From: Nitrospirota bacterium
GTDB taxonomy: Bacteria > Nitrospirota > Thermodesulfovibrionia > Thermodesulfovibrionales > Dissulfurispiraceae
DNA: 64,000 nt
Assembly (NCBI GenBank): GCA_963790025.1
Contig: CAWBMP010000004.1
Coordinates: 1,408,001-1,472,000, forward strand
Reading direction: 5' to 3'
In this document: one piece after another, positions 39,001 through 45,000 of the stretch
How positions within the stretch are numbered: the first letter of the stretch is position 1
How the letters are laid out: every line of letters begins with the position of its first letter
Made by a program: the position numbers

Positions 39001-42000
39001 TCAAATGCTGCAATAGCAGCAGCGGAGCCGCCCCCCATCCCGTTAAACAGTGCAACCATCTGTGGCATATCAGTCATTCTGACCACCTTTGCCGACCACC
39101 AGGAAATGCTGCCGCCAAGGGCGAGGGCAAGTATGATCAGCGCATAATTGCTCATGCCGGGCCAGGCAAAAGTAACCAGGGTCGCCAGCATCATTCCTGC
39201 TCCGGCCCAGACAATGCCACGTCGCGCAGTCACGGGAGACGACATTCCCTTTAACCCCAATATAAATAGGAACGCTACTACAAAGTAGCTCGAATTGATT
39301 ATGAACCGGAAGCTCATTGCTGTCATCTTTTAGAGGATTCTTTCGTCTTTCCGCTCTTGAACATGGCGAGCATGCGTTCCGTGACCACATAGCCGCCGGC
39401 GGCATTGGCTGCCCCGAGCAGTACCGCCAGGAAGCCGATAGCCTTCTCAAAAGGCGTTTGCGCCTGTCCTAACACAACCATTGCACCCACCAGCACCACA
39501 CCGTGAATGAAATTCGAGCCTGACATGAGAGGCGTGTGCAGGATTACAGGCACCCGCGATATAACCTCATAACCGGCGAATGCAGCCAACATGAATATAT
39601 AGAGTGCGGCAAAGCCTTCCATAGGCACCTCCTTACAAAAATTGCTCCCGATGCTTCGGCATTATGGCACTTTTTTCATAATCCCAGTGATCTTCGAGCA
39701 CTTTCATTGCGGACCTGTCCCTCAACGGTGAAGGCGCTCCCCTGAATGATCTCGTCGCTCCAGTCAAGTCTGAGTTCGCCGTCTTTAAGATGAGGGGCTA
39801 AAAAATTAAACAGGTTTCTGGAATACATTTCCGAGGCGTGGACAGGCATGCTGGATGGCAGGTTGACCGGGCCGAAAATAGTGACACCGTCCATGATCAC
39901 TGTCTCGCCTGCCCGTGTGCCGGCCACATTGCCGCCTCCCTCCGCAGCCATGTCCACGATCACAGCACTCCGTTTCATACCAGCCACCATGTCTTCAGTG
40001 ACGATCAGGGGGCTTTTCTTTCCTGGCAAGGCAGCCGTAGTGATCAGTACGTCAACTTGAGAAATTGCCTTCGCGAGTTTTTCTTTCTGGACCTTTTTTT
40101 CCTCTTCCGTCAATTCTCTCGCATACCCGCCGGCTCCGCCCGCAGACATGCCGGCATCTATGAATCTCGCTCCGACTGACTCTGCCTGCTCCCTGGTTTC
40201 ACTACGCACGTCATAAGCTTCAACAATCGCGCCTAGGCGATGGGCAGTCGCTATCGCCTGCAGACCTGCAACTCCCACGCCGATTACAAGCACCCGCGCC
40301 GGGCTCAGAGTCCCGGCTGCGAACGTTATCATAGGGAAGAATTTCGGGCAGTTCCCCGCAGCTATGATTGCACAGAGATAACCGGCCACCGTAGCTTGTG
40401 ACGTAAGAGCATCCATGCTCTGGGCCCGCGAAATACGCGGAATCAATTCGAGAGCAAAGCTGGTTATTTGCTTCTCACACAATAGTCCTGCACGTTCCGG
40501 GTTTTCGAAGGGGTGCAGGAAACCGGTTAGTACAGTGCCCGGGCGCATCGTCCGTATCTCCTCTTTTGTGGGCGCCTGCACCTTGAATATAACCTGAGAT
40601 CTGGCATATACCTCTTCAGCATCCGCCGCAATATCCACTTGCCCGAATTCCTCGTCGCGGAAATGGCTCCCCGAGCCAGCGCCGCGCTCTATACAAATAC
40701 CTGCCCCCAGGGCCTTGAACTTTGAGGCCACTTCGGGCACCAGGGCCACGCGCTTCTCACCCTTAACCGACTCCTTCGGAACTCCTATTATGAGGGCCAT
40801 AATGAGATCATTATATCACCTTTAGTGCGTTTGGGTATCTCAAGGGCAAATTTCGTCTTTTTACCTTTTATAGAAATTATGAAGTAATATTGATACATTT
40901 ATAAAAAGGCTGCAACTCGGGGGAGAAGGCGGTTGGGACTACCTGACTGTTGATAGTGCAGCAAGGACTTTACAGTGTTCGATATTGAACTTTTACGAAA
41001 CATCAATCAAGTCGCCTGGTAATCAGTAATTCAATTTGTGAGATATTTTGAAGGGTACCGCGCTACAGCTAATATTACTATAGCAATCAATTACTATTGT
41101 AATTGAGGATAAGCTATTGTATACTGGGCTCCAAAAAAATTCCCTAGTCGCAAAAAAACACAAACCATTGGTAAAGAGGCGACTGAAAACTTCGGATCTT
41201 ATAACAAAGATGGCCAGACTGTACTATTAACAAAAGGAGTACATGATATGACTGAAGGTTCTATTATTGACAAAGGGCTGGATATTGATAATCTTATACC
41301 TAAAGATATCACTCTGAAAGCTGAAAATGTAGGTGTTCTAAAGGCCAATCTCGATTTATTTACGCTAACTGCACTGGCTATTATGGCAGGCGTCTTCATA
41401 TCACTAGGTTCGGCTTTTTTTACTGTAGCGATTGCGGGAAACGGAGTTGCAGGAGCTATTAAACTGCCGGCTGGCATTATAAGGATCGTGGGAGGGATAG
41501 TATTTGGTCTTGGACTCATTTTAGTTGTAATAGCAGGGGCGGAGCTATTCACGGGTAATGTTTTGATTATCATGGCTGCTGCCAGCAAAAAGATAACCAT
41601 CGGCAAGGTGTTAAGAAATTGGTCAGTGGTTTACACAGGTAATTTTATAGGCTCCGTCATAACGGCATACCTGGTATATAAATGCGGCCAGTATAAATTA
41701 CTTGATGGTATTTTCGGTGTGCAGGCTTTGTCAATTGCCAACGGAAAGTGCGCTATGCCTTTTATCGAGGCAATGACGAGGGGGATTTTATGTAACGCCC
41801 TGGTGTGCCTTGCCATTTGGCTCTGTTTTTCCGGTCGCACGGTAGTAGACAAGATTACCGGCATAATCTTTCCTGTTACTGCTTTCGTAGCCATGGGGTT
41901 TGAGCACTGCGTGGCAAATATGTACCTTGTGCCTGTCGGCATCTTTATAAAGACGTATGCCGGTCCAGAATTTTGGCTTGCTACAGGCAAGACCGCCGCA

Positions 42001-45000
42001 GAGTTTTCTGTCCTTACATGGAAAAACTTGTTCATCGTCAACCTGCTTCCCGTATCGATCGGTAATACAATAGGCGGTTTTATGATAGGCCTTATGTACT
42101 GGGTGATTTACGATCGATCAAATATTTTAAATACCGAAAATCAAAAGGAGCTGCTCAAGAAACTCATAGGCCGGGGCCGGAGGAAATTTGAACGTCACGA
42201 TGCAGAAGGTGTCGTGACTATATATAGACATTTATCTTCCTTTAAAGGACTGCTAAAAAACATAAGTGAAGGCGGCTTGCTATGTACGCTTGACAAGAAT
42301 GACCTCACTGCCGGCACGTTAGAAAGGATAACGTTAGATATTGAATCGGAAATGGTTTCAGGTCATGAATCGGTTAAAAAAACTATAACGGGATTAAGCG
42401 GCCGTCTGATCAACATCAGTACAGGGGCATCCGATCAGGTGGACATTTCTATTTAATTTATCGACGTCACGCCGGAAAAAAGAAGAGAGATTATTAATTT
42501 CATTAACTGGATACCCAAAAAGAACTAGAAAACCGGTATATTGTCAGTATCACATTTCGCGAAGTCCGGCTCACTCTTACTTGCTGTGAACTGAGGCCCT
42601 ATGCAAGCCTTTCCAGAAGACATTAATAAAGAATGTGGACAAGACACTTTACAGAGCGAAGATGCAGGGAAAGGACAGAATTAGTTGTCTGAGATGAAAC
42701 GGACCCAAGAATTGGCAGAGAAGCCACGCTATAACATTAATCATGAATTTATAACAAAAAATGTTACCGGGACCATGTTTTTGTCGACCGATACACTCAA
42801 ATATTGACTTATACTCTTTATTCACCTCCGTTTTTCTGTTTTTTCTTTTTCTTGCTCAAGCTCGCAACTTGCTCAACCCCGGATAGAAAGAACCGCTCAC
42901 TGAAGCCTGCTGCAAAAGCCAAGACGAGATAGGTTGCTTGCGTATTCTCAGAAGCCGTGACAATCTTTATCACGCCGGATACCTGGATCAGATAGATGAT
43001 CAAACCGCTGGCAGCTCCGATTAAGGGTTTGAGGCACAGCAGGGTCCTGCGAATGTAATAGGCGGAAGAAGGTGCTTCTAGTGATTCCATGGTCGAAAGC
43101 GCGCTAACGAACCCACCGATAGAGCCGAAAACGATAACGGCGAGGATGAATGTCCATGTGACCTTGGGCATTTGAAGAAACTCTGGAACTAGCCAGAGAC
43201 TGCCGCCCAGCAGGCCGCCGAGGATTATGGCGGTGAACAAAAGGCGTGTGCGCAGGAGGTTCACCTTGCGCCAATGGGCATCTCGTGCATCGGCAGTGAG
43301 CAGGGAAAGGCGCTCCATGTCGAAACGGATTTCCTGCATTGGAAGGGCATGGGCATGTCTGTCCTCTTCGTGTTTTGGCAGATGGAGCCGAAGAGACTCT
43401 TCGATCCTGTCGAGATCGCCTTCGTATTGCTTCTGTTCTTCCTTGGCGATGTAAGAAAGACTGCCTCGGATATCTACGACTACCTGGAGAAGATCAGAGA
43501 CAGAGCCAATACGACATATCATATGTCGAATCGTGTGGAGCATCTGCCAAATCTTGTCATAAGCGGAATAAGAAAGAAATATCCGGTGATTAAATGTATC
43601 TTCGGCCTGTTCGAGCCACTTGCGGCATTCCGTAATGTCTTTACCTTCCTGTTTGAGTTTTTCCAGTACAGTATGGATATTCTGGATCTTAACCAGAATC
43701 TGAGGATCCCTGCCTACGCTATGTTTTCGCATTGTCTTACCTCCTTTTCCAGTTTTTTTATGATCCCATATGCTGTCGCACAATTTAACAGAAATCGGCC
43801 TTGCAATCCCAGTTTAATTCCTTCATCAACTTTTGTTTTATCATTCTGCTGCGCTGCTGGTTTCCTTGTTCCTGTGTTTTTACTTTCTTTACATCCGGAC
43901 AGCAAAAGGAGAAAAATTGACAGTAATTTGCGCTATCCACAGAGCTGTATAGACACACTCGAATAAAGACCGTCCTCGGATATCTAAAGTTTTATCTGCG
44001 TATCCACTTCCGGAAACAGGGCAAATATTTTATTATTATCTTCTTGTATCACGCTTACGCTATGGCGTTTCTTCACTACCGGTACCACCTCTTTTGGTCA
44101 GCGGCACCTCCTCGCTGCCGCTGCCGCCTTTCTTCTTGCGTGCGAGTGACACAGAAATAGCCGATTCGACGTCCGCAGCAGACGCCTTCGGTAGATAATT
44201 TTTAGAAGCCGTATCGTCCTCTTTTCTCCTGCGCAACGGATTACTCTTCTTAGCCATTTTTGCTACCTCCTATCTGGGTGATGCATCAACCGCATCCTCG
44301 TCATTTGCCGGGTATGACCGAAAAGTCCTTGGTCTCATCACCGGTTTCCTTGCCGTTCTTCCATCCAACCGCCTTGAATGTGACCTTGTCATCGGGATTT
44401 GCATTCTGAATTTCAAGCGTGAGCACGGTTGCCGCCTTGACCGTGATCTTATCGAGAGCGATCGCTACCGCAGCACCACCGGGATCCTTCGCAGATTTCA
44501 CTTCGGCTCCGCTCCAGGTGAGGACTGCGCTATCGTCCTTGAAATTGTCGAACACCAGCTTGACCGTACCGGCGCCCTTGGCGACCTCGATCTTGTTAGT
44601 GCTCGCCCGAAAGTCAAATCCGGCTTTCGGCTTGGCAGAGGGCGCCTCGGCGAGCAGCAGGTCGAACGCGTGGTCTGCGATCTTGTCGGTGGCACAGCCT
44701 CGTCCGAAAGTGCACAGGCTGGGCTGGACGTACAGATGGCTCTGTTCGAGGACGATTTTTCCGAGCTTCCATTTGGCAGGCGAGGGGAATTGCAGAGCAA
44801 GTGTCCCCGTCGCCGGGTCAGGCCCGATAGTCTCCGCCGGGAATTCGTAGGATTTGCCGGTGCTGTTCATTAGTTGCAGAACCGCCGAAATTCCTCCCGC
44901 TGTTATTCCCGAAACGTTGCGCAGCACGATGTCGAGTTTTTCCTTGCCGTCATCGCGCATCAGTGCGGTTTGCTTCGGAATCACGATATCGGGCGGGACC

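What a model noticed while it worked through the whole genome (the two positions that open the first line are those of the whole stretch)
41248..42456. FocA-type anion channel fused to a canonical PilZ c-di-GMP receptor domain
g02471 (402 aa) is a formate/nitrite-transporter (FNT) channel, 46% identical to E. coli FocA, that carries a C-terminal PilZ domain with both c-di-GMP-binding motifs intact (RRKFER = RxxxR; NISEGG = D/NxSxxG). It predicts direct c-di-GMP gating of a formate (or related monovalent anion) channel.
Evidence so far: pfam.tsv: Form_Nir_trans 21-286 (E 1e-71), PilZ 311-364 (E 2e-6); Swiss-Prot FocA 46.1% over res 14-292. Motifs read from the sequence. find_homologous_proteins: of the 120 listed (the query included) 34 are >=400 aa: 30 with the same kind of tail, 19 of these with a precomputed PilZ hit, and 4 with a receiver domain instead; named ones Nitrospirae, Ca. 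Magnetominusculus, Magnetococcales, Ca. Magnetomorum; alignment shows GRRKxxR and (N/D)(I/V)SEGG kept in the nearest ones and degraded in the more distant. Paper searches 35 and 38 found no FNT-PilZ fusion. AlphaFold2 on an alignment of 19 fused homologues: mean pLDDT 75.7; res 316-401 fold as seven beta-strands (blocks 69-86) after the chann [...]
(Added by a program. Inside this text positions count along the whole contig: contig position 1,408,001 is position 1 of the stretch shown here. "Call 12" and the like, gene names such as g00115 and contig names such as C1 are that model's own, and its searches are not shown. The text may have been shortened before it was handed on; [...] marks where a part breaks off. 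The agent that wrote the report below was given it as the finding of a first reader that could run no searches.)

Follow-up and report, generated by a model that had tools for sequence, protein, structure and literature searches.

The report
Formate channel with truncated PilZ tail
This gene joins a formate channel to a sensor domain for the bacterial signal c-di-GMP, a rare and apparently undescribed combination, but in this genome a premature stop codon cuts off the end of the sensor.

Summary
The ORF at 41248..42456 (+, 402 aa) is real. It is a FocA-type FNT channel (Pfam E 8.8e-71) with a C-terminal PilZ-type tail carrying RRKFER and NISEGG. The fusion is a genuine but rare family. A profile search lists 40 sequence clusters of 402-489 aa, and the channel cores of the 30 fused proteins I treed fall on one side of a single supported branch.

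Relatives have Lys there; the same-genus copy reads AAA with identical flanking codons. The 23 codons after the stop still match the relatives' C-termini: 20.0 bits, reached by 0 of 2000 shuffles. Reading through extends the Pfam match from profile 2-55 to 2-101 of 102. The annotated product therefore lacks the conserved Phe and the C-terminal helix of a canonical PilZ.

The TAA is present in contigs of two studies' runs, and no UAA-reading tRNA was found. I read it as a recent nonsense mutation in a formate channel whose intact relatives are probably gated by c-di-GMP. That gating is inferred, not shown. Only 14 of 30 family members keep both binding motifs. In 4 of 6 close relatives a Cache chemoreceptor gene follows directly.

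The parts
40801..41247 (+). AT-rich upstream intergenic region (GC 0.365), shared with the divergent pntA gene. The Shine-Dalgarno AAGGAG lies at 41234-41239.
   Evidence: One sigma-70-like site at 41097-41125, no more than the shuffles give. No Rfam riboswitch at E<=1.
41248..42456 (+). Annotated ORF of 402 aa: FNT channel plus truncated PilZ tail.
41308..42105 (+). FNT (Form_Nir_trans) channel core, res 21-286. Pore residues T102 and H220 are present. A Y288-D289-R290 motif follows TM6.
   Evidence: Pfam E 8.8e-71. NCBIfam fnt subfamily 238.9 bits, above the 232.3 cut-off; FocA equivalog 269.2 bits, below 290.1. T and H are invariant in 30 of 30 fused proteins. FocA structures 3q7k and 3kcu score E about 1e-72.
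42133..42171 (+). Predicted linker helix (res 296-308, NQKELLKKLI...) between TM6 and the PilZ barrel.
   Evidence: Tail model helix H7-19. In the full-length model, res 291-311 have pLDDT below 50.
42178..42195 (+). RRxxxR motif (R311 R312 K F E R316), first c-di-GMP-binding motif.
   Evidence: Read. RxxxR is kept in 23 of 30 fused proteins.
42259..42276 (+). [quoted passage not shown]
   Evidence: Read. Kept in 14 of 30 fused proteins.
42193..42450 (+). PilZ beta-barrel: seven predicted strands, res 316-401.
   Evidence: Folds. Foldseek matches to PilZ structures at E 1.2e-5 to 1e-3.
42454..42456 (+). Premature stop TAA at codon 403, where relatives have Lys (AAA or AAG).
   Evidence: Present with 0 differences in a 689-nt contig of run X1 and a 151-nt record of run X4, which come from different studies.
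42457..42528 (+). In-frame remnant of the PilZ C-terminus: 23 codons, FIDVTPEKRREIINFINWIPKKN, then TAG 42526-42528. It holds the conserved Phe404 and the predicted helix res 409-421 (42472-42510).
   Evidence: Pfam PilZ rises to 38.8 bits and covers profile 2-101 of 102 when the stop is read through. The remnant scores 20.0 bits against an HMM of 18 homologue C-termini; 0 of 2000 shuffles reach that, and only the gene's own frame matches. The helix is seen in the models.

Best explanation
The gene belongs to a rare family with a probably single origin. In this family a FocA-type pentameric formate channel carries a cytoplasmic PilZ domain directly after transmembrane helix 6.

In this genome a single-base change (Lys AAA to TAA at codon 403) ends translation just after the last beta-strand. 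The 402-aa product keeps an intact pore and both c-di-GMP motifs. It lacks the conserved Phe that buttresses the [D/N]hSxxG motif, and it lacks the C-terminal helix. The 23 lost codons are still recognisable downstream, so the mutation is recent.

The organism has no pyruvate formate-lyase but has two selenocysteine formate dehydrogenases. The channel therefore most likely takes up formate as an electron donor.

For intact relatives I infer this mechanism. c-di-GMP binds between the RRxxxR loop and the barrel. The RRxxxR loop sits only 21 residues after the Y-x-R motif that FocA needs for translocation. Binding would pull the TM6 end or the tail against the cytoplasmic vestibule and so gate formate passage. 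In this allele that control is probably weakened or lost.

Shown: the architecture, the truncation, the reality of the stop in DNA, and the family. Inferred: formate as substrate, c-di-GMP binding, gating, and the effect of the truncation.
For: Architecture:
- Pfam FNT and PilZ hits.
- Tail fold with pLDDT 82.4 and pTM 0.71. Its best PDB matches are c-di-GMP-bound PilZ domains, 20 of them at E<=1e-3.

Truncation:
- 18 of 18 aligned homologues have a residue at the stop column, and 15 of 18 have Phe next.
- G002 reads ATT-AAA-TTT-ATC where the window reads ATT-TAA-TTT-ATC.
- The Pfam match grows from profile 2-55 to 2-101 on read-through.
- The post-stop peptide scores 20.0 bits; 0 of 2000 shuffles reach it.
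- The product is the shortest of 40 fused clusters.
- 9 of the 10 relatives' copies scanned show a PilZ match reaching profile position 100-101. L019's copy gave no hit at the 1e-4 threshold, and its near-identical protein P0008 scored 20.4 bits over profile 2-75. None of the 10 has an internal stop.

Stop real and not recoded:
- Two runs from two studies cover it with 0 differences.
- aragorn finds no tRNA with anticodon tta or cta, though tRNA-SeC is present.
- Other 'stops inside' flags in this genome turned out to be natural gene ends.

Family:
- All 30 fused proteins lie on one side of a branch with SH-aLRT 99 on a tree of the channel core only.

Substrate:
- FocA models score 269 bits against 90 for NirC.
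- The genome has 0 PFL matches and 2 full Fdh-alpha matches, each with one TGA.
- This is the only FNT gene in the genome.

c-di-GMP link:
- Both motifs are intact in 7 of the 8 members of the window's clade.
- An HD-GYP gene lies directly upstream in G002.

Literature:
- FocA termini are cytoplasmic and Y-L-R is essential (PMC5572259, abstract read).
- PflB gates FocA through its N-terminal helix (PMC11841067, passages read).
- Roles of the Phe and the C-terminal helix in PilZ (10.1101/814665, sections 6 and 11 read).
Against: - No binding, transport or expression data exist. No RNA run was listed.
- All seven strands and both motifs survive the truncation, so c-di-GMP binding may persist in the 402-aa product.
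- 16 of 30 family members have degenerate motifs, and only 3 of 18 in the large second clade keep both. c-di-GMP cannot be the tail's only function.
- The FocA equivalogs are below their cut-offs (269 against 290 and 440). The L of Y-L-R is replaced by D here and by N or C in relatives, so substrate and oligomer behaviour may differ from E. coli FocA.
- Read depth at the stop is low (4.6 and 2), and X1 may be the sample the genome came from.
- The linker is poorly predicted (pLDDT below 50), so the geometry of any gating is unknown.
Confidence: 0.6

Rival explanations
1. One reading: the 402-aa protein as annotated is a working c-di-GMP-gated anion channel. The barrel and both motifs are enough, and the loss of the helix does no harm or is an adaptive shortening.
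For: Both motifs and all seven strands precede the stop. Pfam PilZ is still above its cut-off at 26.8 bits. The gene is otherwise intact, with a good Shine-Dalgarno sequence. The same allele is seen in the data of two studies.
Against: No other of the 40 fused clusters ends this early; all others are 409-489 aa. The lost Phe is described as the most conserved hydrophobic residue of PilZ and as contacting the h residue of the motif. The helix contributes to the hydrophobic pocket and to partner contacts (10.1101/814665, sections 6, 7 and 11). The intact-looking remnant argues for a recent accident and not a settled shorter form.
Confidence: 0.2
2. The TAA is not an effective stop. It is either a consensus error, or it is read through often enough that the full 426-aa protein with a complete PilZ is made.
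For: The downstream 23 codons are undamaged and end at a TAG where relatives also end. Coverage at the site is thin.
Against: Two independent contigs from two studies carry TAA with 0 differences. No suppressor tRNA was found. The genome otherwise uses TAA as an ordinary stop. The next base is T; from memory, UAAU is the strongest termination context in E. coli, which I did not check here.
Confidence: 0.1
3. The PilZ-type tail is mainly a protein-interaction adaptor or plug, not a c-di-GMP sensor. It could tie the channel to the chemotaxis machinery (the neighbouring Cache-MCP, or CheR as MapZ does) or to a formate-using enzyme, in the way PflB docks on FocA.
For: A Cache_3-Cache_2/HAMP/MCP gene directly follows the fused gene in 4 of 6 close relatives, with overlapping stop and start in 3 of them. 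A molybdopterin oxidoreductase precedes it in 2. 16 of 30 tails lack one or both motifs yet are retained. MapZ-CheR1 (5xly_B) is among the fold matches. The C-terminal helix is the usual partner-binding element (10.1101/814665, section 11).
Against: Both motifs are intact in 7 of 8 members of the very clade that has the MCP neighbour, which argues that c-di-GMP still matters there. No MCP or Fdh neighbour was found in the 4 loci of the second clade or in the window. The best full-length match to the partner MCP in this genome is only 32% identical and lies elsewhere.
Confidence: 0.2

Closest known systems
E. coli / Salmonella FocA (FNT family; PDB 3kcu, 3q7k), gated by PflB through its N-terminal helix
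   Same: Same fold and pore residues (Thr/His). About 46% identity over 285 residues. Both termini are cytoplasmic, with a Y-x-R motif after TM6 (PMC5572259 abstract; PMC11841067 passages).
   Different: Carries about 110-135 extra C-terminal residues that form a PilZ domain. The organism has no PflB. The motif is Y-D-R rather than Y-L-R. Scores are below the FocA equivalog cut-offs.
Canonical PilZ domains fused to effectors: BcsA cellulose synthase, Alg44, YcgR, MapZ, and the Azospirillum Tlp1 chemoreceptor
   Same: RRxxxR and [D/N]hSxxG motifs. A beta-barrel followed by a C-terminal helix, seen here only in the read-through and in relatives. Foldseek TM (target-normalised) 0.62-0.74 to YcgR and Alg44 PilZ.
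   Different: The partner is an anion channel, an architecture that the Galperin and Chou preprint's main text does not mention (0 occurrences of transporter, channel or formate). This allele is cut before the conserved Phe and the helix.
FocA-type channels with a C-terminal receiver (REC) domain
   Same: The same position on the channel is used for a cytoplasmic signalling domain. There are 4 of these among the 120 listed, and P0060 was confirmed by Pfam.
   Different: A different sensor (phosphorylation rather than a nucleotide) and a separate clade of channel cores (SH-aLRT 98).

Membership tests
FNT (formate/nitrite transporter) family | Full-length match to Pfam PF01226 and to the NCBIfam fnt subfamily model, above their cut-offs | tested here: met
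   PF01226: 238.5 bits over profile 2-240 of 240. TIGR00790: 238.9 bits against a cut-off of 232.3.
FNT (formate/nitrite transporter) family | Central pore Thr and His (E. coli T91 and H209) | tested here: met
   T102 lies in AGAELFTGN and H220 in GFEHCVANM. They align with the corresponding Thr and His motifs of Salmonella FocA and are invariant in 30 of 30 fused proteins. The E. coli numbering is from the PMC9380403 abstract listing.
FocA (formate-specific equivalog) | Score above the NCBIfam equivalog cut-off | tested here: not met
   TIGR04060: 269.2 bits, below 290.1. NF008069: 267.5 bits, below 440. FocA is still by far the best-scoring subtype; NirC scores 89.9.
FocA (formate-specific equivalog) | Y-L-R motif directly after TM6 | tested here: inconclusive
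   The window has Y288-D289-R290. Relatives have Y-N-R, Y-C-R or Y-C-H. Y and R are kept, but L, which E. coli needs for pentamer integrity (PMC5572259 abstract), is not.
FocA (formate-specific equivalog) | Homopentamer; formate/formic acid translocation | not testable with these tools
   Needs biochemistry. Five copies exceed the size limit of the complex predictor.
Canonical PilZ domain (PF07238) | Pfam match above the gathering score | tested here: met
   26.8 bits against a cut-off of 22.5, covering only profile 2-55 of 102. With the stop read through: 38.8 bits over profile 2-101.
Canonical PilZ domain (PF07238) | RxxxR and [D/N]hSxxG c-di-GMP-binding motifs | tested here: met
   R311-R312-K-F-E-R316 and N338-I-S-E-G-G343. 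Motif definitions are from 10.1101/814665 (abstract and section 6 read).
Canonical PilZ domain (PF07238) | Beta-barrel fold like solved PilZ domains | tested here: met
   Tail model pLDDT 82.4. The top 20 Foldseek PDB matches at E<=1e-3 are PilZ domains.
Canonical PilZ domain (PF07238) | [quoted passage not shown] | tested here: not met
   Both lie after the TAA: F404 at 42457-42459 and the predicted helix res 409-421. They are encoded only in the untranslated remnant.
Canonical PilZ domain (PF07238) | Binds c-di-GMP | not testable with these tools
   Needs ITC, DRaCALA or MST on the purified tail.

The most novel reading that the evidence does not exclude
Intact members of this family are the first anion channels gated directly by c-di-GMP. 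In magnetotactic Nitrospirota they form a 'sense and import' unit with a translationally coupled Cache chemoreceptor, and sometimes a formate-dehydrogenase-like enzyme. The motile/sessile messenger would then set how much of the electron donor formate enters the cell while the receptor steers towards it. The window's allele is a natural deletion of the PilZ helix that uncouples the channel from that control.
Probability: 0.3. Interest if true: 0.8.

Novelty: new variant of a known kind. Interest (0 to 1): 0.55.

Why it matters
c-di-GMP is known to control secretion, motility, polysaccharide synthases and transcription through PilZ domains. I found no report of it acting on a solute channel of the FNT family.

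FocA gating is an open question outside the enterobacteria, where the gating partner PflB is often absent, as it is here. A channel that carries its own nucleotide sensor would give a directly testable answer. Together with the receiver-fused FocA proteins, it would show that the C-terminus after TM6 is a general docking point for regulators.

The truncated allele in this genome is a ready-made natural control for such experiments. It also warns against taking the annotated 402-aa protein as the reference for the family.

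Tried and rejected
- Complex prediction of the channel core (P0002 res 1-296) with its PilZ tail (res 306-421) and two c-di-GMP gave no verdict: score 0.02 against a mark of 0.32. I draw no conclusion from it.
- The look-up of sequencing runs listed no RNA holder, so nothing can be said on expression.
- A tail-only word search (P0002 region 291-421) returned only the query itself, because the tail is too divergent for word seeding.
- The tail-profile search of the 50%-identity representatives found 424 PilZ-type hits, but only 1 of the top 150 was FNT-fused, because fused proteins collapse into FocA clusters. 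It is useless as a count of the family.
A 6-row alignment worked.
- A c-di-GMP or other riboswitch upstream: no Rfam match at E<=1 apart from one chance lncRNA hit.
- Terminator scan: none found in 40750-42900.
- Foreign origin judged by composition: gene GC is 0.433 against a genome value of 0.474 (sd 0.036), and 8% of 1.2-kb windows are as low. This is not telling.
- The idea that this genome is riddled with nonsense codons: the other 'stops inside' flags are natural gene ends. One EAL frameshift is real.
- Conserved neighbours in the second clade: none.
- The upstream molybdopterin enzyme in L017 and L018 scores best as Fdh-alpha but far below the cut-off (289 against 666), so I do not call it a formate dehydrogenase.
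- Paper searches found nothing on an FNT-PilZ fusion: PilZ + FocA as whole words gave 5 papers, all off-topic by title; 'PilZ domain' + 'nitrite transporter' gave 7, none about a fusion by title or abstract start; PilZ + Form_Nir_trans gave 0. One search was spoiled by 'focal'. Subscription journals are not covered.

Full report
**Observation.** The ORF at 41248..42456 (+) exists and encodes 402 aa. AAGGAG lies 8 nt before the ATG. Pfam gives Form_Nir_trans on res 21-286 (E 8.8e-71). It gives PilZ on res 311-364 (E 6.6e-6, 26.8 bits, cut-off 22.5), covering only profile positions 2-55 of 102. NCBIfam places the channel above the fnt subfamily cut-off (238.9 against 232.3). It is closest to FocA (269 bits; NirC 90 bits) but below both FocA equivalog cut-offs. 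FocA structures are the best PDB sequence matches (3q7k E 4.6e-73, 3kcu E 2.4e-72). I counted 130 identities in 285 aligned columns, about 46%.

**What was missed.** All other fused relatives are longer. When the window is read through its TAA (X at the stop), the next 23 codons give FIDVTPEKRREIINFINWIPKKN and then TAG at 42526-42528. This aligns with the relatives' C-termini, for example ...VSIKFIELSPEKKTEMLRFIESIAPKVD.
- At the stop column, 18 of 18 homologues have a residue (K 12, D 2, Q 2, R 1, E 1), and 15 of 18 have Phe next.
- The same-genus genome G002 reads TCG-ATT-AAA-TTT-ATC where the window reads TCT-ATT-TAA-TTT-ATC. At the stop itself, one A-to-T change turns the Lys codon into TAA.
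- Pfam PilZ on the tail rises from 31.8 bits (profile 2-56) to 38.8 bits (profile 2-101 of 102) on read-through.
- An HMM built from the 18 homologues' C-terminal segments, window excluded, scores the post-stop peptide at 20.0 bits. None of 2000 shuffles reach that (maximum 14.4). Of the three downstream frames only the gene's own frame matches.

**Is the stop real?** A 689-nt contig of run X1 and a 151-nt record of run X4, from a different study, cover it with 0 differences. Depth is low and X1 may be the source sample. aragorn finds tRNA-SeC but no tRNA with anticodon tta or cta. Other 'stops inside' flags in this genome proved to be natural gene ends, apart from one frameshifted EAL. So this is neither a recoded genome nor a generally decayed one.

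**Structure.** The tail folded from a 19-row alignment gives pLDDT 82.4 and pTM 0.71. It has a linker helix, seven strands (res 316-401) and a helix at res 409-421. The full-length model agrees, with pLDDT 75.9 and the linker 291-311 below 50. Foldseek's best PDB matches are c-di-GMP-bound PilZ domains: YcgR 5y6g at E 1.2e-5, then MotI, Alg44, MapZ, VCA0042 and BcsA. Galperin and Chou (10.1101/814665; abstract and sections 6 and 11 read) define canonical PilZ as a six-stranded barrel plus a C-terminal helix. [quoted passage not shown] They call the helix the key element for protein-protein contacts. In the window both lie after the stop. The 402-aa product therefore fails that defining feature while keeping both ligand motifs.

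**The family.** A profile of 29 fused proteins finds 40 clusters of 402-489 aa at 581 bits or more. Below them come one 358-aa protein (553 bits) and then unfused FocA at 471 bits or less. The window's protein is the shortest of the 40. P0026, fused, was not relisted, so there are at least 41 clusters.

I built a tree of the channel core only. It had 63 rows: the 30 fused proteins, the 4 receiver-fused proteins and the 29 best-scoring unfused proteins. The other 57 unfused proteins were left out. The 30 fused rows lie on one side of a branch with SH-aLRT 99, and the window sits in a starred 8-member clade. Named members are Nitrospirae/Nitrospirota MAGs, Ca. Magnetominusculus, Ca. Magnetobacterium cryptolimnobacter, Ca. 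Magnetomorum, one record labelled Magnetococcales, and Methylotetracoccus.

Among 41 genomes of the window's order, only G000 and G002 have the fusion. Both motifs are intact in 14 of 30 members: 7 of 8 in the window's clade, but only 3 of 18 in the large second clade.

**Context.**
- In the window the gene stands alone, between the divergent pntAB genes and two unknown convergent ORFs.
- In 4 of 6 close relatives a Cache_3-Cache_2/HAMP/MCP chemoreceptor follows on the same strand. Stop and start overlap in 3 of them.
- In 2 of those 4, a molybdopterin oxidoreductase precedes the fused gene. Its best model is Fdh-alpha, at 289 bits against a cut-off of 666.
- In G002 an HD-GYP gene lies directly upstream.
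- Four loci of the second clade show no such neighbours.
- The window's genome is 3.45 Mb and 98.8% complete. This is its only FNT gene. It has 8 PilZ, 16 GGDEF, 6 EAL and 8 HD_5 matches, no PFL, and two Fdh-alpha genes each with an in-frame TGA.

**Mechanism.** FocA termini are cytoplasmic and the Y-L-R motif after TM6 is essential for translocation (PMC5572259, abstract read). In E. coli, PflB gates the channel through the N-terminal helix (PMC11841067, passages read). Here PflB is absent, and the RRxxxR loop starts 21 residues after Y288-D-R290. I infer that in intact members c-di-GMP clamps this loop to the barrel and so moves the TM6 end or the tail at the cytoplasmic mouth. The result would be regulated uptake of formate for the formate dehydrogenases. 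The window's allele probably leaves a working pore with weakened or lost control. None of this is shown. Three rivals remain open: a still-functional short form, read-through, and a tail that mainly binds partners such as the chemoreceptor.

**Novelty.** Searches for PilZ with FocA, with 'nitrite transporter' and with Form_Nir_trans found no description of the fusion. The PilZ survey preprint has none of the words transporter, channel or formate in its main text. Subscription journals and that paper's supplements were not seen. Earlier notes of this scan describe other regulatory domains on FocA-type channels (receiver, four-cysteine) but no PilZ fusion. I rate it a new variant of a known kind. 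It is of fair interest as a family, tempered here because this copy is truncated.

Noticed in passing
L014 8592-10640; L016 8447-10477; L017 8480-10498; L018 3166-5190: A 673-683-aa Cache_3-Cache_2/HAMP/MCPsignal chemoreceptor directly follows the FNT-PilZ gene in 4 of 6 close relatives, with stop and start overlapping in 3. It is absent next to the window's copy, and the best full-length match in this genome is 32% identical and lies elsewhere.
   Followed up: partly
L017 4817-6997; L018 2-1780: A molybdopterin oxidoreductase lies directly upstream of the FNT-PilZ gene. Its best NCBIfam model is Fdh-alpha, but far below the cut-off (289 against 666 bits), so the substrate is unknown.
   Followed up: partly
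L003 34-1242 (= L019 5649-6890): In the same-genus genome G002, an HD-GYP (HD_5, HHEKLSGNGYPYGL) protein is encoded directly upstream of the intact FNT-PilZ gene on the same strand.
   Followed up: partly
own genome G000:C4:946917-947619: An EAL domain is split over two reading frames, a real frameshift, next to a GGDEF domain at C4:947680-948153. This is a second damaged c-di-GMP gene in this genome.
   Followed up: partly
own genome G000:C5:472868-474722: A chemoreceptor signalling domain is followed about 430 bp downstream by a small PilZ ORF (152-aa open frame). It may be a MapZ-like pairing.
   Followed up: no
own genome G000:C4:301738-303753 and C4:691706-693709: Two full formate dehydrogenase alpha genes each carry one in-frame TGA, and the genome has tRNA-SeC. 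The formate dehydrogenases are therefore selenocysteine enzymes. No pyruvate formate-lyase was found.
   Followed up: partly
window 33005-35740 and 47214-47546: An ERF-family recombinase, a double-HTH regulator and an HNH endonuclease lie here. They look like phage-derived remnants near the locus.
   Followed up: no
window 42818-43783 (-) and 44301-46739 (-): Two ORFs, of 321 aa (with predicted membrane segments by eye) and 812 aa, have no Pfam or NCBIfam match.
   Followed up: no
own genome (aragorn list): aragorn calls a tRNA-Asn with anticodon att, which is unusual and may be a false call.
   Followed up: no
P0060, P0087, P0095, P0108: Four FocA-type channels carry a C-terminal receiver domain in place of PilZ. 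They form their own clade of channel cores with SH-aLRT 98.
   Followed up: partly
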